NCBI GenBank assembly: GCA_965248925.1 | Contig: CBDFLE010000006.1 | Span: 4,928,001 to 4,992,000, forward strand | Length of the DNA stretch: 64,000 bases | Direction: 5' to 3' | Origin: Candidatus Multivoradales bacterium | GTDB taxonomy: Bacteria > Acidobacteriota > Thermoanaerobaculia > Multivoradales > J023 | Notes under the pieces: generated by a model | Told to the model about the DNA's origin: nothing | The model's input: the letters and a program-made list of their open reading frames with translations, nothing else | Databases searched by the model: none | Shown: piece by piece, positions 22,221-62,174 of the stretch | Position numbering within the stretch: position 1 is the stretch's first letter | Layout: each line of letters opens with the position of its first letter | Position numbers and translations under genes: made by a program

Positions 22221-23450
22221 ATGATGAGCACGATTTTGCTCGGCGTGGTGATGTTCACCGTCATCATCCTGTCGCTAGTCGCCCTCTTGATGGTCGCCAA
22301 GCGGCAGCTGGTGCCCTCAGGCGAAGTGACCATCGCCATCAACGGCAACCCTGAGTTGGCGCTTAGGGTGGCGTCGGGCGGCAACCTGCTGAACACCCTG
22401 GCAGACAACCGCATCTTCATTCCCTCGGCCTGTGGCGGCAAGGGCAGCTGCGGAGTGTGCAAGGTCGACGTGGTCGATGGCGGCGGCGCCATGCTGCCCA
22501 CCGAGCTCAGTCACATCAGCCGCGGCGAGGCGCGTGAGGGTTGCCGGCTGTCGTGCCAGGTCAAAGTCAAAGGCGATATGGCCTTGCAGATGCCGGCCGA
22601 CATCTTCGATGTTCAGCAGTGGACCTGCAAGGTGCGCTCGAACCACAACGTCGCCACCTTCATCAAAGAGCTGGTCTTGGAACTGCCCGAAGGGGAGTCG
22701 GTGCCCTTCCGCGCCGGCGGCTACATTCAAATCCAAAGCCCGCCTCACGTCGCCAACTACAAAGATTTCGACATCGAAGAGGAGTATCGCGGCGACTGGG
22801 ACAAGTTCAACATGTGGCGCTACGTCTCGACCGTCGACGAGACTGTCGAGCGCGCCTACTCGATGGCCAACTACCCGGAAGAGAGGGGCATTATCATGCT
22901 CAACGTGCGGGTAGCCTCGCCGCCGCCCCGCGGTCCCGAGGGCATTCCACCGGGCAAGATGTCCTCCTTCATCTTCAACCTCAAGCCTGGCGACGAGGTA
23001 GTGATCTCTGGCCCCTTCGGCGAGTTCTTCGCCAAAGAGACCGACAACGAGATGCTATTCATCGGTGGTGGCGCCGGCATGGCGCCGATGCGCTCGCACA
23101 TTTTCGACCAGTTCCGCCGCTTGAGCAGCAGCCGTAGAGTGTCCTATTGGTACGGTGCCCGCAGCTATCGCGAGGCCTTCTACAACGAAGACTTCGACAG
23201 CATCGCCGCCGAGTACGACAACTTCGAGTGGCACCTGGCCCTGTCCGAGCCTCAGCCGGAGGACAACTGGCAAGGGTACACCGGCTTCATTCATCAGGTG
23301 GTGCTCGACAACTACCTCAAAGACCATCCGGCACCGGAAGACGTCGAGTACTACCTCTGCGGCCCGCCGATGATGCTGCAAGCCTGCATGAAGATGCTCG
23401 ACGACCTCGGAGTCGAGCAAGAAAACATCCTCTTCGACGACTTTGGCTGA
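22221..23450 (+). CDS. nqrF: Na+-NQR subunit F
   Basis: 2Fe-2[42 protein letters not shown]. Confidence 0.96.
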
Positions 23451-23481
23451 GGTGGGAAGCTGCCCAGTGCGAGAGATCTAC

Positions 23482-23513
23482 AGCCGGCGGTCCTCCGCCG
23501 GCTTTGGTGTTTC
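23482..23513 (+). terminator. Intrinsic terminator after nqrF
   Basis: AGCCGGCGG-TCCT-CCGCCGGCT followed by TTGGTGTTT. Confidence 0.75.
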
Positions 23514-23584
23514 TTGGAGAGCTAGCTCTACCTCCCCGGTCTCTCGATGTGCCGGTGCCTCACGGTGCTTGTCCGAGGCGGTCC

Positions 23585-23837
23585 CTAATGGTTGCCAATA
23601 CTCGACTTAACTCTCATCGCAGGTCCTGCAATACGACGGATGGTGTGGCGATAGCCGTCCGTTCCGCGGTTATTCGACGACCGCTATCGACATTGACACC
23701 CCTACCTACCAGAGAGTAGCCTGCAAGTCATTGCCTACGGCAAAGATACGCTACCGGGACCGGTACGATGACTGCATCTAGACACAGTAGACATTGTCGC
23801 CGAAGACCTTCGCCGGTTGCCGAATTATGAGTTTGGG
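23585..23837 (+). repeat. Promoter-attI-like module, copy 1
   Basis: Imperfect direct repeat of 24778-25036; TTGACA-N18-TAGCCT (23693-23722); ends GCCGAAT-TATGA-GTTTGGG. Confidence 0.6.
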
Positions 23838-23904
23838 TGGACAGAAGATCGCTGTGCGGCAGAATAGAGCTTGGAGACGATGGAGTTCGGACTAGGATGA
23901 GGCG

Positions 23905-24363
23905 ATGAAGATCCGGATCTACACGGACACGTCGGTCCTTGGCGGCTGCGAGGACGAGGAATTTGCCGAGCACTCCATCCGGCTCATGGAGGGCTTCGTC
24001 AGAGGCGAACTTGTCCTGGTTCTGTCCGGCCTCACGGTGCAGGAACTGGCCGGGGCACCGGTCGAGGTTCGTCGGCGAATCGCTGCTGTGCCGGAGGCGC
24101 ACATAGAGACGCTTCAGCTTGATGCCGAGTCCAGGGAACTCGCAGAAGCCTACATAGCCGCCGCCGTCCTCACGGCCAAGATGCGGGCCGACGCCCAGCA
24201 CATTGCCTTGGCGACGGTTGGCCGCGCTGACGTCTTGGTGAGCTGGAACTTCAAGCACATCGTCAACCTGCAGCGGATCCACGGGTACAACTCCGTGAAC
24301 CTGCGCAAGGGCTACCCAATGATCGAGATCCGGACGCCGCGAGAGGTGTTGTCAGATGAGTAA
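23905..24363 (+). CDS. PIN-domain toxin-like protein (gene cassette)
   Basis: IYTDTSVLGG, DAQHIALAT, LVSWNFKHIVN, IRTP. Confidence 0.85.
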   Translation: MKIRIYTDTSVLGGCEDEEFAEHSIRLMEGFVRGELVLVLSGLTVQELAGAPVEVRRRIAAVPEAHIETLQLDAESRELAEAYIAAAVLTAKMRADAQHIALATVGRADVLVSWNFKHIVNLQRIHGYNSVNLRKGYPMIEIRTPREVLSDE

Positions 24364-24565
24364 GACCGAGAAGGAATTCGACGCGGTCGCGATGATGCGA
24401 TCGGCCCGGGACAATATCTCCGCAGAGATCGAAGGTATGACACTGGAGGAAGAGTTGAAGTGGCTCGCCTCGCAAGAAATGAATGATCCGTTCCTGGAGC
24501 GGCTCCGTGATCGCGATGCCCAACAAGCCGATGCAGCCGGACGGCCGCTCCGCGGCCGCCGCTGA
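24356..24565 (+). CDS. Small putative antitoxin downstream of the PIN gene
   Basis: FDAVAMMRSARD..S.EI.GMT.EE motif; overlaps the PIN stop and runs into attC. Confidence 0.65.
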   Translation: MSKTEKEFDAVAMMRSARDNISAEIEGMTLEEELKWLASQEMNDPFLERLRDRDAQQADAAGRPLRGRR

Positions 24566-24582
24566 TCGGCAAGGCGTTCGGC
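24518..24582 (+). mobile_element. Integron attC site 1
   Basis: R'' GCCCAAC, GCCGAT(G)CAGC / GCTGATCGGC with extrahelical G, R' GTTCGGC. Confidence 0.85.
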
Positions 24583-24777
24583 GGTAGACACATGATTCCC
24601 TATGTGTTGGCGCTACCGTACTTTGTGTGGGTAGCACTCACCGCCAGACACTTTCAGGGTAGAGATCAAGACCTCCATGATGGAAGAAGAGCTGGTCGGA
24701 GCTTTATCCGGCATGTCGCACCATCATGAAGCGTTCATGCGGCCTTGATAATCGCAACCAAAGGCTCCGAATTCACC

Positions 24778-25036
24778 CCTGACTACTGCCAGGCATGGGC
24801 TTAGATTTCTTTGCAGAGTAGCAACACGACGGATAGAGTCGCGATAACCGTCAGCTCCGCGGTTGTGCGACGACCGCTGTTGACATTGACACGCATATCT
24901 ACCAGAGAGTAGCCTGCAAGTCGTTGCCAAAGGCGAAGATAGGCTACCGGGGCCTGGACGATGACGGCCGGCGTCCAGACGACAGTAGACATTGTCGCCG
25001 AATACCTCCGCCTGTTGTCGAATTATGAGGTTGTCC
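24778..25036 (+). repeat. Promoter-attI-like module, copy 2
   Basis: Repeat of 23585-23837; TTGACA-N18-TAGCCT (24886-24915); ends GTCGAAT-TATGAG-GTTGTCC. Confidence 0.6.
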
Positions 25037-25058
25037 GTTCCATGGCGGGTGCAGAAAT

Positions 25059-25832
25059 ATGATCAGGTTGTTCATCAGTCACAGCGCCGCTGATGCCGAA
25101 TTGGCGGGGGCGGTCGCCGACTTATTCCGATTCGCGCTTCGAATGCCAGCGGACGAGATCCGCTGTACTAGCGTCGATGGCTATCGGCTACCAGGTGGAG
25201 CAAACACGGATGAGCAACTTCGGCAGGAGGTAATGCTGGCGCCCGCATTTGTGGGCGTCGTTTCCCACACGAGCTTCGAGTTGGCCTACGTCCTGTTTGA
25301 GCTTGGAGCTCGATGGGGTCGGAACGAGTACCTCGTGCCGCTTCTCGCTCCAGGAGTGCCCGCGTCGATTCTCAAGGGACCGATTTCCGGACTGAACGCC
25401 CTCAGTTGCGACTGTGCTTCCCAACTACATCAGCTCGTGGCTGAAGTTGGCGAGCGGCTTGACCTATCGCCTGAGCCAGCTGCCGTCTACCAGGGTGCCG
25501 TCGATCTCATCGCTCAGCACCAGTCCACAGCACGGCCCCCCTCATCCAATCGGGCTGACACAAGAGGCTCCGAGTTTCCGGAGGCCGAGTCGATCATCAA
25601 AGCGAGGTGCGCCGCCGAATGGAGCGACGATTTTGAAATGAGGCTCGACTGCGAAGAGTCTCAGCGGAAGGCGCTAGGCAAACTGAAGCGTCGTGATCAC
25701 CAAGAAGTTCCTGATGAAATTTTCGAACGAATTCGAGCCTATGCCACGCGGGAGTGGCCGGACGATTTTGAGATGCGAGTCGACACTGTAGAAAGCCAGC
25801 TTGCCGCGTATCGCAAGCTCTATTCGCGATGA
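25059..25832 (+). CDS. TIR-domain protein with duplicated C-terminal EWxDDFEMR motif (gene cassette)
   Basis: LFISHSAAD, VVSHTS...YVLFELGA (TIR_2-like, catalytic Glu retained). Confidence 0.8.
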   Translation: MIRLFISHSAADAELAGAVADLFRFALRMPADEIRCTSVDGYRLPGGANTDEQLRQEVMLAPAFVGVVSHTSFELAYVLFELGARWGRNEYLVPLLAPGVPASILKGPISGLNALSCDCASQLHQLVAEVGERLDLSPEPAAVYQGAVDLIAQHQSTARPPSSNRADTRGSEFPEAESIIKARCAAEWSDDFEMRLDCEESQRKALGKLKRRDHQEVPDEIFERIRAYATREWPDDFEMRVDTVESQLAAYRKLYSR

Positions 25833-25836
25833 TGAC

Positions 25837-25901
25837 GGCTAACAAGGCGATGCAAACCGATGGCCACTTCGCGTCGGTCGCTGATCGCCGAGGCGTCAGA
25901 C
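25837..25901 (+). mobile_element. Integron attC site 2
   Basis: R'' GGCTAAC, GGCGAT(G)CA / TGATCGCC, R' GTCAGAC; similar in length and sequence to attC1. Confidence 0.8.
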
Positions 25902-25917
25902 GGCATTAGGCCAAGAG

Positions 25918-27024
25918 ATGTCAATGGCCTCTGAAGTCGTGGAGAACGGAAGACTCGACCTTGAGAGAAGAAAACTCGACTTTGAGCGCGAGAAATGGGA
26001 GGCGAAGGTCGCTCACCAACAGCGCTTGGCCGCGCGAGAAGACGCTGAGCATCAACTAAGGGCGGCAGACTTTGATCTTAGGCGCGAAGAGCACAGGCGA
26101 GCAGGTTGGCGCAATCCTCTCGTAGTAGCGATTCTTGCTGCGACGATTGCGGCAGTCGGAAATGGCGTTGTAACAGTCGTTAACGGTTCGCTACAGCGTG
26201 CTATCGAGAGTCAAAGGTCGGATTCAGTGCGCATTCTCGAGATGATTAGGACTGCCGGCGACTCCGATAAAGCAGCGGAAAATCTGAAGTTCCTCCTGGA
26301 AGCTGGATTGGTAGACAATCCTTCTCGTATCGAGAAGCTGAAAGCTTTCCTGGAAAAGCGGGAGCCGGGTACCGGGCCGTCGTTGTTGGGTGGCCGTGTA
26401 GTACCCGGAATTGTTGGACCGGACGATGCCGTTTCAACGGACGCACTACAAGCAGGCCATCCTCTCCGGCGAATCGCAAATGCCGTGGGACTTCTGTTGT
26501 CTGTCCGGAAGGACGGTTTCTCCTCTGCATGCACTTCATTCTTGATCGGTGATGGTCTGCTACTCACTGCGTTTCATTGCGTGGAGGACGTTTCCTCGCT
26601 GACTGTGGAACTGTCCGATGACGCGGGAACCGAGAGATACCCGATCCCCCCACAGCCAGTCGCAGCGGACCGAGATTTGGACTTCGCAGTATTTCGGGTT
26701 CCGGAAGAGGCTGCCTCCAGGTTCGGGGCAATTCGTCTGGGTGATTCAGTTCCGCATCTCGGGCAACAGATAGCCGCTGTCTACTATCGCGGTGGCGGAC
26801 GCCGATTGGCAGTGCTATCCGATGATTGTCGAATCGTGAAAGTGGAGGCTAGGAAAATACACCATCTCTGCGATACTGGGGCTGGAAGCGCAGGTGCACT
26901 GATCGTTAGCAGCGACGGTACTTTAACTATAGGGTTGCACCACAGACGGGGTCCACTTGGTGGAGTCGCGACTCGTATCGATACGATTAAGCAAGCCATT
27001 TCCAGAATCACTCCTGGCTACTGA
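25918..27024 (+). CDS. Membrane-anchored trypsin-like serine protease (gene cassette)
   Basis: Coiled coil plus TM, then triad motifs LTAFHC, DLDFAV, DTGAGSAGA. Confidence 0.8.
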   Translation: MSMASEVVENGRLDLERRKLDFEREKWEAKVAHQQRLAAREDAEHQLRAADFDLRREEHRRAGWRNPLVVAILAATIAAVGNGVVTVVNGSLQRAIESQRSDSVRILEMIRTAGDSDKAAENLKFLLEAGLVDNPSRIEKLKAFLEKREPGTGPSLLGGRVVPGIVGPDDAVSTDALQAGHPLRRIANAVGLLLSVRKDGFSSACTSFLIGDGLLLTAFHCVEDVSSLTVELSDDAGTERYPIPPQPVAADRDLDFAVFRVPEEAASRFGAIRLGDSVPHLGQQIAAVYYRGGGRRLAVLSDDCRIVKVEARKIHHLCDTGAGSAGALIVSSDGTLTIGLHHRRGPLGGVATRIDTIKQAISRITPGY

Positions 27025-27048
27025 CGTGAACCACATACTTACCTCGCC

Positions 27049-27143
27049 GTCAAACAGAGCGGTCAACCCGATGCCCAAACCGCTACGCGATTCGGATTCC
27101 CTCCGCGCTACGAACTCCGGCGCGGGTTACCGCGAAACTTACC
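27049..27143 (+). mobile_element. Degenerate integron attC site 3
   Basis: R'' GTCAAAC, GCGGT(C)AACCCG / CGGGTTACCGC; R' damaged. Confidence 0.65.
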
Positions 27144-27176
27144 AAGCATCCTGGCCATCGAGTGGCTACGCTGAGC

Positions 27177-27850
27177 GTAAGACCTCGCCTTGCCCCGTCT
27201 TGACAAGGGCCTCGGATTCGAGCAGCGAAAATCAGTTTGATCGCGGTGAATCGCCTGAGCTGGCCGGCAGGGTGACGGCGCCGGGATTCTCGAGAGCAGC
27301 CCGCGTTGCTTTGAGGAGGTAGGCGTAGGGCTCATCGCTGGCGAGCTTGGCGCGATCGGTCAGACTGTAGGGAAGCGCCGCGACCTCGGTTCCTCGCTTG
27401 GAGCGCGATCCGTAGTGGTTCTTGCGTCCGATGAAGACGCCTCGCAGTTCCCTCTCGGCAATGCTGAAATCGAAAGGGATGAGAGGGTTCTCAAGAAAAT
27501 ACGTTGGCCCCTTCCGGAGGCCGAGTAGGAAGATGGCCCCATTCTCCAAAATCGCTGCGCGGTAGACCTTCGGCTCGGTCCTCCATGGCCAAAGCCTCCA
27601 GCATCTTGAGAATGGGCCCGGATTGCTCGGGGCACAGTTGCAGGCGCAAGCCCAGAATGTCCTGCGGCTTTGGAATCTGGACAGCCGGTAACGATAAGTC
27701 CGCCGCTGGCGCTTGACTAAGATGAAGATTCTCCGGACTACGGCGAGATCCTGGTGTCGGCGATAGTTGCGCGACCGCGTTCGCTTCTGCGCTACTAAAC
27801 TCCTCGTGGTGCCCGGAGCCAATCCGTCGCTTGTGGACCACCTCGTGCCG
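27177..27850 (-). pseudogene. IS66 TnpC transposase 3' remnant with terminal GTAA
   Basis: AERELR...GRKN..GS...G...A..YSL...AK....P.AYL; frameshifted upstream; GTAAG end at 27177. Confidence 0.7.
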
Positions 27851-27939
27851 GCGGTGGTGGGCGATGAGATTTCGGTCTTCCCGGCGGAAGCTCTAGTCCT
27901 TCACAATCTGCAAGACAACCGGCCGCAGGATCGGGCGAA

Positions 27940-28084
27940 TGTCGTGGCCCTCCTCGACGCCGGGGCCGAGCCGGTCTTGACGGCGGCGGTCGGGGTGTTG
28001 GTTCTGGCCAGCTTGCTGGCCGCCCTGTGGCCTGCTTTTCGCGCGACTCGGGTGAGCCCGCAGACTTGTTTGCGCGCGGATTGA
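27940..28084 (+). pseudogene. C-terminal remnant of an FtsX/MacB-like ABC permease
   Basis: LVLASLLAALWPAFRATRVSPQTCLRAD terminus without the N-terminal part. Confidence 0.6.
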
Positions 28085-28134
28085 GGCCTCATCTCGCAAT
28101 GGACGCGGTGGGTCGCTGTGCGTAGACTCAGCCA

Positions 28135-29181
28135 ATGTCGAGTCGTGATCAACCTTGGATATTTCTCGTCGGATGGGCTCTGGTCGTGCTCCTGGCCGGG
28201 GCTTGCCGGCCGGTTGAGGAAGGCCCCGCGAGCCATCTCTTCTCAGGCCCGACCATGGGCACCACTTACCGGGTCAAGGTGGTCGCTAGAGAGCTGCCCG
28301 CGGAGCGTCGGCAGCAGCTGGCTGCGGCCATCGAGCAGTGGTTGGACGCGGTCGACGCCAGCATGTCGACTTATCGTCCCGACTCCGAGTTGTCTCGTTT
28401 CAATCAGCATGTCGCGGGCACGCCGTTTGCGGTTTCTACGGCGATGGCCGAGGTCTTTGCCGCGGCTCTCGAACTCGGCCAAGCCACCGGGGGTGCCCTC
28501 GATATCACTCTTGGGCCGCTGGTCGATGCCTGGGGTTTTGGTCCAGGTGGCCGCGGGGCGGTGCCGGATCCACAACAGCTCGCCGAACTGCGCTCGCGGA
28601 TTGGGCTTGGCTTGCTGTCCTTGGACCGCGATCAGGGCACCCTGATCAAGGAGATTCCGGAGCTGCACTGTGACCTGAGTTCGTTGGCCAAGGGCTATGC
28701 GGTGGATCGAGTTCTGGAGGCGTTGGCGGATTTGGGAGTTACTGACGCCATGGTCGAAGTCGGGGGTGAGGTTCGCACCCTCGGTCACAATGCCAGTGGG
28801 CAGGCTTGGCGGATTGCCATCGAGCAGCCGAACTTCGCGCCGGGTGGCATTCAGCGCGTCGTTGCCTTGACGGATCGGGCGATGGCCACCAGTGGCGGCT
28901 ATCGCAACTTCATCGAGGTAGCAGGCGAGCGTTTGCCTCATCTGCTCGACCCGCGCACGGGTTGGCCGGTACGCCACCGGCTGGCATCGGTGTCGGTGGT
29001 GGCCGCCAGATGCCTCGAGGCGGATGGCTTGGCGACCGCTTTGGCCGTGCTCGGGCCGGAGGAGGGGCTGGTGTTGGCCAATCAACAGGGTTGGGCGGCA
29101 TATTTCTTGGTCCGTGGGGACCAGGGTGTGTTGATCGAGCGGGCTAGCCGATCTTTTGCGGAACTCTACATGTCTCGCTGA
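28135..29181 (+). CDS. apbE: FAD:protein FMN transferase (lipoprotein)
   Basis: LAGAC lipobox, TMGT, MSTYRPDSELSRFN, DLSSLAKGYAVD, ATSGGYRNF, ADGLATA. Confidence 0.93.
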   Translation: MSSRDQPWIFLVGWALVVLLAGACRPVEEGPASHLFSGPTMGTTYRVKVVARELPAERRQQLAAAIEQWLDAVDASMSTYRPDSELSRFNQHVAGTPFAVSTAMAEVFAAALELGQATGGALDITLGPLVDAWGFGPGGRGAVPDPQQLAELRSRIGLGLLSLDRDQGTLIKEIPELHCDLSSLAKGYAVDRVLEALADLGVTDAMVEVGGEVRTLGHNASGQAWRIAIEQPNFAPGGIQRVVALTDRAMATSGGYRNFIEVAGERLPHLLDPRTGWPVRHRLASVSVVAARCLEADGLATALAVLGPEEGLVLANQQGWAAYFLVRGDQGVLIERASRSFAELYMSR

Positions 29182-54740: not shown

Positions 54741-55171
54741 CCGATCCTCCTTCCGGGGAGGCTGGAATACCCCGTTTGCGAGGATCACGCAACCATCGAC
54801 CTCGGTCGCGGCCAGGATTCCGTCGGTGCAGGCAGCGAGACTCGTACCACAGGCTGTGGGGCCGCTGTGACCTCCGCCGCAGACCGAAACGGGCTCAATT
54901 CAAACACTTATGGCCGAGAAGCAGCAAGCTCTCGAGGTTCGGGGCGGAGATTGTTCTTCCGGCTGAGCAGCCGATCTCCGGCTCTCGCGCCAAATATCTC
55001 GGCGCGGTTGCCTATGCCGCAAAGTCTCCGGGTTCTTGATGCCTCGCCAGCCTCGCGGTATGTTTTCGCAACAGAGGCCTTACGCGAAATTGTGGCTTGG
55101 CGACAACGGTGCCGCGCCGCGCCGCCTGTCTTCGGTGCGATATGTCTGCTGATGGGGACAAGTAGAAGTTT

Positions 55172-55190
55172 GTAGAACGTAAGGTTATGC
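55172..55190 (+). mobile_element. attI-like site heading the second cassette array
   Basis: GTAGAAC-GTAAG-GTTATGC; GTTATGCGG is complementary (1 mismatch) to CCGCAGAAC at the cassette end. Confidence 0.55.
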
Positions 55191-55200
55191 GGACTAGAGA

Positions 55201-55998
55201 GTGATTCAGGGCATAGGCGAAAGAATCCAGGTCGCTCGTGAGTCCAAGGGCTTGGCGATGATCGATGTCGCCAAGCTAATTGGGGTAACGTGGTCGCCGA
55301 CGGCGCCACCCATCATGTACAAATTAAGAGGAGCAGCAAACAGTGGGCCCACAAACCCAGCGACGACAGCAAGAGATTGAATCGGCACGGCAGCAGAGGG
55401 AGAAAGATCATGAAACGCGCAATGGCATGCAAGACAGTCCGATAAAATCAGGAGAAATCAAAGCTCAGGCTGTTTCCCCGCCGGAACCATGATATTGACT
55501 GCCATAGGGGCAGTTGATATCGCGTCTTTAAAGGAGGGAGACTCGATTCTGACGTTTGACATTCGCCGTGCCGCTCTGAATCCAGAGCGTATTTTGAAAG
55601 TCAGTGAGCACAGAGATTGCAGAATCTGGGAGATTACGTTTACGGATGGGCATCAGGTCCAGACGACTGCTGTTCACAGTTTTCGCCTTGCGCAAGGATG
55701 GAAAATGGCGAGAGATATCTCCGGAGGTGATACGGTTCGCTGTATGACCAAGGGTGAAACACTTTTGCGGAAAGTGTCAGAGTCAAGGCAAACGATGAAA
55801 GTCGGAAACGTGTTCAATCTAATTGTGGAGGGTCAATTCTCTTTCGTTGCTGATGATGCGGTTGTCCACAGTTTTTCATATTTCCGAATTCCAAGGATGC
55901 TGGCATGGGCTTTCTACGCAAAACTGAGACGACATCTTCTCGGCAGGATTACTAAACCACGCTCACGCAGTTGTAAGGCGCATCGGGTTTTTACATAA
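55201..55998 (+). pseudogene. XRE-HTH plus Hint (intein-like) domain gene, interrupted; gene cassette
   Basis: IGERIQVARESKGLAMIDVAKLIGVT from GTG 55201; in-frame TGA at 55378 and 55411; then CFPAGT (55471), TTAVH, VFNLIVEG.FSFVAD..VVHS. Confidence 0.7.
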
Positions 55999-56029
55999 GG
56001 CGCTCAGCGGAACGTAGTAGAGCAAAGCC

Positions 56030-60896: not shown

Positions 60897-62174
60897 TCAG
60901 CCGAGCCGTTCGATGATCGTTGCCTCTCCCTGGCCGACCCCGACACAGAGGGTCGCCAGGCCGTATTTCATCCCTTGACCTTGGCTGGCTCGGCGTTTCA
61001 TCTCGTGGATCAGGGTGGTCAGGATGCGGGCGCCGGAGCAGCCCAGGGGGTGGCCGAGGGCGATAGCGCCACCGTTGACATTGCAAATTTCCTGGCTTAG
61101 CCCGAGCCCTTGCAGCACCGCCAGGCTCTGAGCGGCGAAGGCTTCGTTGAGTTCGGCGAGGTCGATGTCGCTGATGGCCAGGCCGGCGCGGCCGAGAGCT
61201 TTGCCGGTGGCGCTGATCGGGCCGATGCCCATCACTCGCGGATCGACTCCGGCAACCGCTGAGCAAACCCAGCGGGCCAGGGGGCGCAGGCCGAGTTCGA
61301 CGGCCTTGGCGGCGGAGGTCAGCACCAGGGCGCAGGCGCCGTCGTTGAGGCCGGAGGAGTTTCCCGCTGTCACCGAGCCACCCTGACGGAAGGCTGGGCG
61401 AAGTTTGGCGAGCTGCTCGGCGCTGGTGGCCAGCTCGTAGCCGTTCTCGGTGCGGCGGTAGCGGGGGTGCTCGTCCACCGCGAAGACGATTGGCTCGCCC
61501 TTGCGCTGGGGGATTTCCACCGCCACGATCTCGTCGTCGAAACGGCCGGCGTTGATCGCCGCGACGGCTCGCCGTTGGCTTTCGAGAGCGAAGGCATCCT
61601 GGTCTTGGCGGCTGATCGGCTGGCCACCGTAGGCTCCTCGGTGGCTAGACTCAACCACATTCTCGGCCGTCTCGCCCATGCCTTCGAGCGGAAAGAGTTT
61701 GGCCAGCTTGGGGTTCGGGTAGCGCCAACCGAGGGTGGTGTCCCAGCCGGTGATATTGCCCGATGGACCAAAGCCCAGTGGATTCTTGGGCATCGAGTAA
61801 GGGGCTCGGGTCATCGATTCGACCCCACCGGCGACGTAGACCTCGCCCTCGCCACAGCGGATCGCCCGCGCCGCCTGGTTGACCGCGTTCAGGCCGCTGG
61901 CGCATAGCCGGTTGAGGGTGACCGCGCCGACCTCTTGCGGCAGGCCGGCGAGCAGGGCCGCCATTCGGGCGACGTTGCGGTTGTCTTCGCCGGCTTGGTT
62001 GGCGCAACCCAGATAGACCTCCTCGATGGTCGCCGGATCGACCCCGGAGCGTTCGACGGCAGCCCGGATCGCCAAGGCCGCCAGGTCGTCGGGCCGTACT
62101 TGCGACAAGGCGCCGCGGATGCGGCCAATGGGGGTGCGGATGGCACTGACGATGACGGCTTCGTTGGCTTTCAC
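60897..62174 (-). CDS. Thiolase (PaaJ/PcaF-like)
   Basis: [45 protein letters not shown]. Confidence 0.92.

What the first reader, a model, noticed from the sequence alone, without database searches (positions are those of the whole stretch)
23585..25036. Duplicated ~250-bp promoter-attI-like module with no integrase: stand-alone cassette landing pads
Seen: two diverged direct repeats (23585-23837 and 24778-25036). Both conserve TTGACA-N18-TAGCCT and both end in GYCGAATTATGA(G)GTT, exactly where similarity stops and a cassette begins. The bases after GTT complement the far-end R'' of each cassette (GTTGTCCGT vs ACGGCTAAC; GTTTGGGT vs GCCCAAC). No intI ORF is adjacent. Established: integrons have one intI-Pc-attI platform, and CALINs are attC clusters lacking intI. 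Inference: tandem, integrase-free Pc-attI platforms served in trans, with a third unrelated attI-like site at 55172. This could be a dispersed multi-attI integron architecture.
Basis: partly seen in the sequence, partly recalled or inferred. Interest (0 to 1): 0.75.

Follow-up and report, generated by a model that had tools for sequence, protein, structure and literature searches.

The report
Two orphan integron docking sites
Two diverged copies of an integron's promoter-plus-docking-site region, each holding a different captured defence-type gene cassette, sit in a genome that has no integron integrase, and look like IS-scarred leftovers of an ordinary integron rather than a new architecture.

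Summary
Two direct copies (core 23628-23832 and 24821-25030, 84% identical, non-coding) exist only here in the 8-Mb genome.

Each copy ends at the base where a real integron cassette begins. A close homologue of cassette 1 in another family starts at window 23833, directly after an attC. Both cassettes end in hairpins of an attC family that forms arrays beside IntI genes across this order.

The module has no R'' (AAC), so it is not an attC. It shares an architecture with real platforms of the order, which are mostly co-oriented (intI, spacer, crossover, cassettes):
- a TTGACN-17/18-TANNNT motif 100-126 nt before the crossover, seen in 6 of 9 real platforms and in both copies here;
- a crossover of the form ..AGG|TT.

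So "Pc-attI-like module" is supported. "New dispersed architecture served in trans" is not:
- the genome has no IntI;
- a truncated ISL3 end lies between the units and an IS66 remnant lies downstream;
- one core triplet per unit is mutated;
- nothing at 55172 matches the attC model.

This is an attI-headed CALIN, a kind already in print (Qi et al. 2023). Earlier notes of this scan describe similar integrase-less platforms on other DNA.

The parts
22221..23450 (+). nqrF, left border of the 4.7-kb insertion; terminator-like hairpin at 23482-23503
   Evidence: 409-aa ORF, 74-82% identical to NqrF of family relatives; terminator scan
23572..23832 (+). Module copy 1 (core 23628-23832): Pc-attI-like region. 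Has -35 TTGACA at 23693-23698 and -10 TAGCCT at 23717-23722. Crossover lies after 23832, where copy 2 has G and this copy has T.
23833..24576 (+). Cassette 1: PIN-like protein (23905-24363) and overlapping 69-aa ORF (24356-24565), ending in attC1 (R'' at 24518, G|TT at 24576|24577)
   Evidence: 88.7% nt identity to L118 over 23833-24574 and 87.3% to L117; both are flanked by attCs. PIN_3 E 0.004, below the Pfam cut-off.
24518..24578 (+). attC1 hairpin
   Evidence: R2 93.6 bits. A near-identical copy with different flanks sits in a second contig of the sample and in G092 beside IntI.
24577..24608 (+). 32 nt after attC1, starting like a cassette (TTCGGCGG, as in the attC-family consensus tail)
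   Evidence: consensus line; inference
24609..24690 (-). Truncated end of an ISL3-family insertion sequence (terminal repeat plus last codons of the transposase); decayed similarity may run to about 24765
   Evidence: 88, 83 and 80% identity to three other copies in the genome, and matches at contig ends in relatives. Transposase ORFs in L180; the family name is from my reading of those ORFs, not from a profile search.
24766..25030 (+). Module copy 2 (core 24821-25030): -35 TTGACA at 24886-24891, -10 TAGCCT at 24910-24915, crossover GAGG|TT at 25030|25031
25031..25895 (+). Cassette 2: TIR-domain protein (25059-25832), ending in attC2 (R'' at 25837-25843; G|TC at 25895|25896)
   Evidence: TIR_2 E 1.7e-5, below cut-off. 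PADLOC spbK E 1.1e-10. R2 81.4 bits.
25896..27175 (+). Third cassette-like unit: trypsin-like peptidase (25918-27024) starting right after attC2; no attC found behind it
   Evidence: Trypsin_2 E 5e-13; no R1/R2 hit at 27025-27175
27176..27746 (-). IS66-family remnant
   Evidence: 78-82% identity to five other full-length (515-518 nt) copies in the genome, plus shorter partial matches; DDE_Tnp_IS66 E 9.6e-5
28135..29181 (+). apbE, right border of the insertion
   Evidence: ApbE E 1.2e-87. In 14 of 23 family genomes apbE abuts nqrF.

Best explanation
The locus is the remains of an integron platform, or of two related ones, of the type common in this bacterial order. That type runs intI, a spacer with a cassette promoter, the attI crossover, then co-oriented cassettes.

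Each ~210-265-bp module is the promoter-to-attI end of that spacer. An integron integrase once inserted a circular cassette at the G|TT at its end:
- a PIN-like toxin with a small partner in copy 1;
- a TIR-domain defence-type protein in copy 2, followed by a trypsin-like peptidase unit.

The integrase gene has since been lost. Insertion sequences (a truncated ISL3 end between the units, an IS66 remnant downstream) rearranged the region, which now lies between nqrF and apbE. By IntegronFinder's terms it is a two-attC CALIN with attI-type heads.

Today the modules most likely act only as promoters for the fixed cassettes. Recombination would need an integrase from outside.

Shown: the repeat, the attC family, the cassette boundaries, the absence of IntI and the IS remnants.
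Inferred: attI function, promoter activity, and the order of events (duplication versus two acquisitions).
For: 1. The attC identity of the two ends.
- The hairpin has 20 pairs, 12 with compensatory changes across 38 sites. 0 of 500 shuffles reach this, and slid controls pair in 26-43% of cells against 88.6%.
- 30 BLAST matches at E<1e-6 fall in 22 other genomes of the order.
- The model finds arrays beside IntI: 15, 14, 7 and 6 sites in four loci.
- A second contig in the sample, identical in its flanks to G092 next to IntI, matches only 24518-24578, that is R'' through GTT.

2. The boundary.
- Homologous PIN cassettes in L118 and L117 start right after an upstream attC.
- They align to the window from 23833 and 23850.

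3. The module is not an attC.
- No AAC lies within 140 nt upstream in either copy.
- There is no R2 hit.

4. Shared architecture with real platforms.
- Nine predicted attI crossovers lie 177-490 nt after the intI stop.
- 6 of 9 have TTGACN-17-TANNNT ending 100-126 nt before the crossover. One has the same two hexamers as here.
- 4 of 9 read GAGG|TT. Here the distances are 110 and 115 nt and the crossover reads GAGG|TT.
- Null rate for the promoter-like motif at that distance: 167 of 200,000 random positions and 40 of 20,000 shuffles.

5. Integrase.
- IntI over cut-off occurs in 85 of 300 genomes of the order and in none of this genome's contigs.

6. IS remnants flank unit 2.

7. One core triplet per unit is mutated: T for G at 23832, and GTC in attC2.

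8. CALINs arising by intI loss or rearrangement, and an attI-headed CALIN, are in print (PMC4889954 and PMC9892861, passages).
Against: - No sequence homology between the module and any real attI region could be shown. BLAST over 299 other genomes of the order gave only 20-33-nt hits at E 0.001-0.009. nhmmer --max over 0.79 Mb of loci, including about 25 IntI flanks, found nothing. Local alignments against six attI regions were no better than shuffles after correcting for 24 tests (best 39 and 52 of 2000).
- No intI relic lies in 23300-28300 (best E 0.075).
- The attI crossovers of the relatives are my predictions from R'' complementarity (9/9 in 3, 8/9 in 5, 7/9 in 2; one 7/9 case, L074, was dropped before the promoter count). 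They are not experimental sites.
- Six of the nine platforms come from one family, so they are not independent.
- The second junction has no close homologue to confirm it. The best TIR relative is 50% identical, and its cassette ends were read by eye.
- Both copies lose similarity at about the same left position. Two independent intI deletions would not predict this.
Confidence: 0.65

Rival explanations
1. The modules are maintained, integrase-free Pc-attI landing pads. They still acquire and exchange cassettes using an integrase supplied in trans, by an incoming mobile element or after DNA uptake from neighbours.
For: - Two different cassettes sit at the homologous base.
- The module core is better conserved (84-90%) than its left part (about 56%).
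- An organism in the same sample carries an integron whose first cassette has an attC 95% identical to attC1.
- Cury et al. speculate that CALIN cassettes can be mobilised by incoming integrons (PMC4889954 passage).
Against: - There is no IntI in the genome.
- Copy 1 has lost the G of G|TT and attC2 reads GTC.
- IS scars suggest decay.
- There are only two copies and only two attCs in 8 Mb.
- No population data show turnover.
Confidence: 0.13
2. The module is the tail of an unusual, attI-ended or ORF-less cassette that moves as part of the array. This would resemble the delta-attI-type cassettes of mobile integrons, rather than the head of a platform.
For: - Segment 24577-25030 is bounded by G|TT on both sides.
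- Delta-attI-type cassettes are functional substrates in class 1 and 2 integrons (PMC12901181, abstract and passages).
Against: - That segment contains a truncated IS end.
- Copy 1 has no attC upstream; the nqrF terminator lies 68 nt to its left.
- No further copy of the module exists in any array searched.
Confidence: 0.07
3. Secondary-site insertions. The module is a duplicated host promoter region unrelated to integrons, and cassettes were inserted there at a fortuitous GTT.
For: - IntI-mediated insertion at secondary sites is a recognised source of CALINs (PMC4889954 passage).
- The module has no detectable homologue next to any IntI.
Against: - The same base was used by two different cassettes.
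- Promoter distance and the AGG|TT context match real platforms.
- The module has no copy elsewhere that could be its 'empty' host site.
Confidence: 0.07
4. The module encodes a structured RNA (leader or small RNA) that regulates the downstream toxin or defence genes. Its position at the cassette boundary is incidental.
For: Conserved small hairpins; several mismatches fall in loops.
Against: - Folding energies are no better than shuffles (z +0.64 and -1.55).
- No Rfam match, even at E 10.
- Two sequences cannot show covariation: 2 compensatory pairs on either strand alike.
Confidence: 0.05

Closest known systems
CALIN: cluster of attC sites lacking an integron integrase (Cury et al. 2016, IntegronFinder; PMC4889954)
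   Same: Two attC sites 1.3 kb apart on one strand, no intI within 10 kb or anywhere in the genome, and non-resistance cargo. The proposed origins (intI loss, rearrangement, IS involvement) fit the IS scars here.
   Different: Each of the two cassettes is headed by its own copy of a non-attC, attI-like promoter module. The definition says nothing about attI. IntegronFinder itself was not run.
attI-headed CALIN beside a complete integron in Shewanella prophage M16-3 (Qi et al. 2023; PMC9892861, passages read)
   Same: A second copy of the attI site stands at the start of a cassette array that has no integrase gene of its own.
   Different: There an intact IntI and its own attI are in the same element and the attI is a known 28-nt Shewanella type. 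Here no IntI exists in the genome, both heads are orphans, and the attI assignment is inferred.
Integrons of the 'inverted integrase group' (named in PMC10500605, one passage read; the layout is as I found it in this order)
   Same: Cassettes co-oriented with intI, crossover 177-490 nt after the intI stop, promoter-like hexamers 100-126 nt before the crossover, and crossover context ..AGG|TT.
   Different: The window has the spacer end and cassettes but not intI. Sequence similarity of the spacer to real ones is not demonstrable.
Delta-attI-type cassettes and attI duplications inside class 1/2 integron arrays (PMC12901181, abstract and passages)
   Same: More than one attI-derived site in one array region. 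Such sites can flank cassettes.
   Different: Those are short attI1/attI2 fragments replacing attC in clinical mobile integrons with IntI present. Here there are ~210-265-bp promoter-bearing modules in an environmental chromosome without IntI.

Membership tests
Integron attC site | Outer core sites: R'' ending in AAC and R' beginning GTT (consensus RYYYAAC recalled; G|TTRRRY as in PMC9892861 passage) | tested here: met
   attC1 has GCCCAAC and GTTCGGC. attC2 has GGCTAAC and GTCAGAC, so one core base is off. Across 38 family sites AAC is present in 33-35 and G-T-T in 36/28/29.
Integron attC site | Imperfect hairpin kept by compensatory change while the sequence varies | tested here: met
   12 of 20 pairs have changes on both sides and 88.6% of cells pair. 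0 of 500 shuffles reach this and slid controls give 26-43%. The alignment was fitted to the model, which favours it.
Integron attC site | Occurs in same-strand arrays next to an integron integrase | tested here: met
   43 model hits in five IntI loci of relatives (15, 14, 7, 6, 1), all but two on the array side and strand. Eight more were found in 20 IntI loci with 1.5-kb flanks.
Integron attC site | Similarity between unrelated cassettes stops at the crossover G|TT | tested here: met
   The second contig and G092 match 24518-24578 only. L118 and L117 show an upstream attC ending at G|TT, then cassette homology.
Integron attC site | Recombined by IntI as a folded bottom strand | not testable with these tools
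   Needs a recombination assay.
attI site / integron platform | Lies next to its intI gene | tested here: not met
   No IntI or relic in 23300-28300 or in the genome.
attI site / integron platform | Non-attC partner sequence ending at G|TT directly before the first cassette | tested here: met
   The boundary is fixed by homologues. There is no AAC within 140 nt and no attC model hit in the module.
attI site / integron platform | Different cassettes inserted at the same base | tested here: met
   Position 23832 aligns with 25030. Cassette 1 starts at 23833 and cassette 2 at 25031. The second start is supported only by its own attC, by position and by R'' complementarity.
attI site / integron platform | Cassette promoter (Pc) upstream of the site | tested here: inconclusive
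   The hexamers are conserved and sit at the same distance as in 6 of 9 real platforms. The simple sigma-70 scan does not call them, because the -10 matches 3 of 6. No RNA run is available.
attI site / integron platform | Bound and recombined by its cognate IntI | not testable with these tools
   The cognate IntI is unknown; an assay is needed.
CALIN (IntegronFinder definition) | At least two attC sites within 4 kb and no intI nearby | tested here: met
   attC1 and attC2 are 1.3 kb apart and no intI is present. This used my own family model, not IntegronFinder's.
Complete integron | intI with the IntI-specific domain plus at least one attC | tested here: not met
   The best TIGR02249 pieces score 72 and 69 bits against a cut-off of 265, and none covers model positions 181-228.

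The most novel reading that the evidence does not exclude
The two modules are kept as working, integrase-free docking-and-expression sites. The bacterium carries no integrase, but acquires and swaps defence cassettes at these sites whenever an integrase arrives on a transient element. The cassettes come from a pool shared with integron-bearing neighbours; one neighbour in the same sample has an attC 95% identical to attC1.
Probability: 0.12. Interest if true: 0.7.

Novelty: new member of a known kind. Interest (0 to 1): 0.4.

Why it matters
attI sites are unknown for most integrons outside the clinical classes (PMC4889954 passage). Two diverged module copies with two different cassettes work as a natural experiment that pins the crossover to one base.

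Comparison with relatives gives a testable picture of the platform in this order's co-oriented integrons: a promoter about 110 nt upstream and a crossover ..AGG|TT.

The locus also shows how cassettes carrying toxin-antitoxin and TIR defence-type genes end up fixed in genomes without an integrase. For the specific claim of a new multi-attI architecture, the result is mostly deflationary.

Tried and rejected
- Coding sequence: rejected. Mismatches are not 3-periodic and indels total 5 nt.
- Known RNA family: none at gathering score or at E 10.
- Stable RNA fold: z +0.64 and -1.55. Two-sequence consensus folds are uninformative on either strand.
- Homologues of the module:
  - none in 23 family genomes or in 299 other order genomes;
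  - exact-word scans gave 2 metagenome loci and 1 genome locus, all a chance 22-33-nt match inside a low-GC gene;
  - viral contigs gave 0.
- First attC model (two sequences) on six IntI neighbourhoods of family relatives: nothing better than E 0.3. Plain repeat finding there showed no attC repeats. The broader model R2 later found arrays.
- intI relic beside the modules: none.
- Sequence-level similarity of the module to six predicted attI regions: not significant.
- Third attC behind the trypsin-like gene: none.
- RNA evidence: no RNA holder listed, so expression is untested.
- nqrF-apbE inserts in relatives (kinase genes, glycosyltransferases, an ankyrin-like gene, a PIN pair on the other strand) share nothing with this island.
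- A covariance-model scan of TIR-homologue loci found few attCs of this family (5 weak hits in 19 loci), so junction 2 could not be confirmed that way.

Full report
**What is there**

The window is part of a 7.98-Mb, six-contig genome with 62% G+C. Between nqrF (22221-23450) and apbE (28135-29181) lies a 4.7-kb insertion. In 14 of 23 other genomes of the family these two genes abut.

Among the other nine family genomes:
- five carry unrelated inserts of 0.9-5 kb at this junction;
- in two, nqrF is not within 10 kb;
- in two, the contig ends.

The insertion reads, left to right:
- module copy 1;
- a PIN-like gene with an overlapping 69-aa ORF;
- a 65-nt hairpin;
- 32 nt, then a truncated insertion-sequence end;
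- module copy 2;
- a TIR-domain gene;
- a related hairpin;
- a trypsin-like peptidase gene;
- an IS66 remnant.

**The repeat**

The two module cores are 84-90% identical, and weaker similarity runs back to 23572/24766. The 35 mismatches show no codon periodicity and the indels are not multiples of three. The module is therefore non-coding.

BLAST and nhmmer --max find exactly two copies in the genome. An independent contig set from the same sample spans the whole region without a difference. That sample may be the assembly's own source.

No homologue was found elsewhere:
- in 23 family genomes or 299 other genomes of the order;
- by exact-word scans of metagenome, genome and viral collections, apart from a chance match inside a low-GC gene.

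**The ends are true attC sites**

The two hairpins (24512-24590 and 25831-25909) are 72-78% identical with compensatory changes. The first clue came from laying contigs. In all four runs a second contig matches only 24518-24578, from the first base of the AAC-bearing outer repeat to the GTT, and differs on both sides.

That contig equals a stretch of genome G092, in another family of the order. There the hairpin closes the first cassette next to an integron integrase.

BLAST of the hairpin gave 30 matches at E<1e-6 in 22 other genomes. A covariance model built from 38 sites shows:
- compensatory change in 12 of 20 pairs;
- 0 of 500 shuffles reaching the observed values;
- slid controls pairing in 26-43% of cells against 88.6%.

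The alignment was fitted to the model, which favours these figures. The model finds same-strand arrays of 15, 14, 7 and 6 sites beside IntI genes in four relatives. In this genome it finds only the two sites. The genome-wide look scored 150 of 13,551 candidates. The window was scanned without filters.

**The module ends where a cassette begins**

The PIN-like protein has relatives in 127 of 300 genomes of the order, counting this one. The closest are 93-94% identical in protein. At the DNA level, L118 matches the window over 23833-24574 (88.7%) and L117 over 23850-24583 (87.3%).

In both loci an attC of the same family sits directly upstream, and the shared sequence begins right after its G|TT. 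Cassette 1 therefore starts at 23833.

Base 23832 (T) aligns with G25030 of copy 2. Both cassettes thus follow the homologous module position. The site reads GAGG|TT in copy 2 and carries a G-to-T change in copy 1.

Junction 2 has no close homologue; the best TIR relative is 50% identical. Its support is:
- its own attC;
- a leader of 28 nt, against 34-35 nt in two homologous cassettes whose ends I read by eye;
- 7 of 9 bases complementary to its R''.

**What the module is**

It is not an attC. There is no AAC within 140 nt upstream of the crossover in either copy and no model hit.

Integron integrases over the NCBIfam cut-off occur in 85 of 300 genomes of the order. In nearly all cases examined, intI is co-oriented with and upstream of the array. 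One divergent case is G092.

I predicted the first-cassette start in ten such integrons from complementarity to the first attC. The scores were 9/9 in three, 8/9 in five and 7/9 in two. One 7/9 case (L074) was dropped as unreliable. In the remaining nine:
- the crossover lies 177-490 nt after the intI stop;
- four read GAGG|TT;
- six have a TTGACN-17-TANNNT motif whose second hexamer ends 100-126 nt before the crossover, and L068 has the very hexamers of this window.

The modules here have TTGACA-18-TAGCCT ending 110 and 115 nt before GAG(T/G)|TT. Such a motif at that distance occurs at 167 of 200,000 random genome positions and in 40 of 20,000 shuffles of the module.

The limits of this evidence:
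- the six platforms come from one family;
- the crossovers are predictions;
- no sequence homology between module and real spacers can be shown.

**Why not a new architecture**

- The genome has no integron integrase. The best profile pieces score 72 and 69 bits against a cut-off of 265 and miss the IntI-specific segment. The best tblastn hit of 20 relatives' IntI is 32% identical. Completeness is 96.9%, so an unassembled copy cannot be excluded.
- No intI relic flanks either module.
- Between the units, 24609-24690 is the inverted end of an IS present in three other copies (88, 83 and 80% identical), with matches at contig ends in relatives.
- 27176-27746 is an IS66 remnant.
- One core triplet per unit is mutated.
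- There are only two modules, 1.2 kb apart, and nothing behind 55172 matches the attC model.

These features fit loss of intI and IS-mediated rearrangement. Cury et al. list both among the origins of CALINs (PMC4889954, passages).

An attI copy heading an integrase-less array has been described in Shewanella prophage M16-3 (PMC9892861, passages). attI-derived sites inside arrays are known in clinical integrons (PMC12901181, abstract and passages).

Search listings only indicate that integron cassettes often encode defence systems and toxin-antitoxin pairs (10.1101/2024.07.02.601686, 10.1101/2024.07.02.601719, PMC13108822). I did not read those papers.

**What stays open**

- Both copies lose similarity at roughly the same left position. 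This suggests duplication of an already truncated unit followed by cassette exchange, rather than two independent deletions. I could not decide between that and two acquisitions.
- Whether the core's higher conservation reflects selection is untested.
- Promoter activity and recombination competence are inferred only.
- Earlier notes of this scan describe integrase-less attI-headed arrays in phages. They gave the lead to Qi et al. 2023, which I checked. They are not independent support.
I did not test that and make no taxonomic claim.

Noticed in passing
window 23451-28134, and L032, L042, L048, L049, L051: The nqrF-apbE junction is a recurrent insertion spot in this family. Five of 23 relatives hold unrelated inserts of 0.9-5 kb: kinase genes, glycosyltransferases, an ankyrin-like gene, and a PIN toxin pair on the opposite strand in G011.
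   Followed up: partly
window 24518-24578; G092:C4:1491887-1491945 (L088, L184): A second organism in the same sample, matching species representative G092 (a different family, with contig depth about 1-4 times that of the host contig), carries an integron. Its first cassette ends in an attC 95% identical to attC1, pointing to a shared cassette pool.
   Followed up: partly
L060, L061, L068, L070, L072, L075 (IntI loci of relatives): Co-oriented integrons of one family in the order share a platform layout. The intI stop is followed by about 330 nt, then a sigma-70-like promoter, then 100-126 nt, then a crossover ..AGG|TT. I did not find this layout in the papers I read, but I did not search for it specifically.
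   Followed up: partly
G000:C5:923173-975667 and G000:C6:3501990-3517779 (outside the window): Seven near-identical 372-aa tyrosine-recombinase genes lie 7-12 kb apart in one 52-kb stretch, and three more lie 8 kb apart elsewhere. This suggests tandem copies of a recombinase-bearing element.
   Followed up: no
window 25617-25649 and 25752-25784: Internal 33-nt repeat (76%) within the C-terminal half of the TIR-domain gene, encoding a repeated EW.DDFEMR.D motif.
   Followed up: no
window 55100-56000: Low-G+C stretch with a 169-aa ORF (55489-55998) that looks like a Hint-type domain by eye.
   Followed up: partly
window 61924-62009 (-): Weak attC-model hit (20.7 bits, E 6e-4) that overlaps ORFs on both strands in the ORF list; probably chance.
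   Followed up: no
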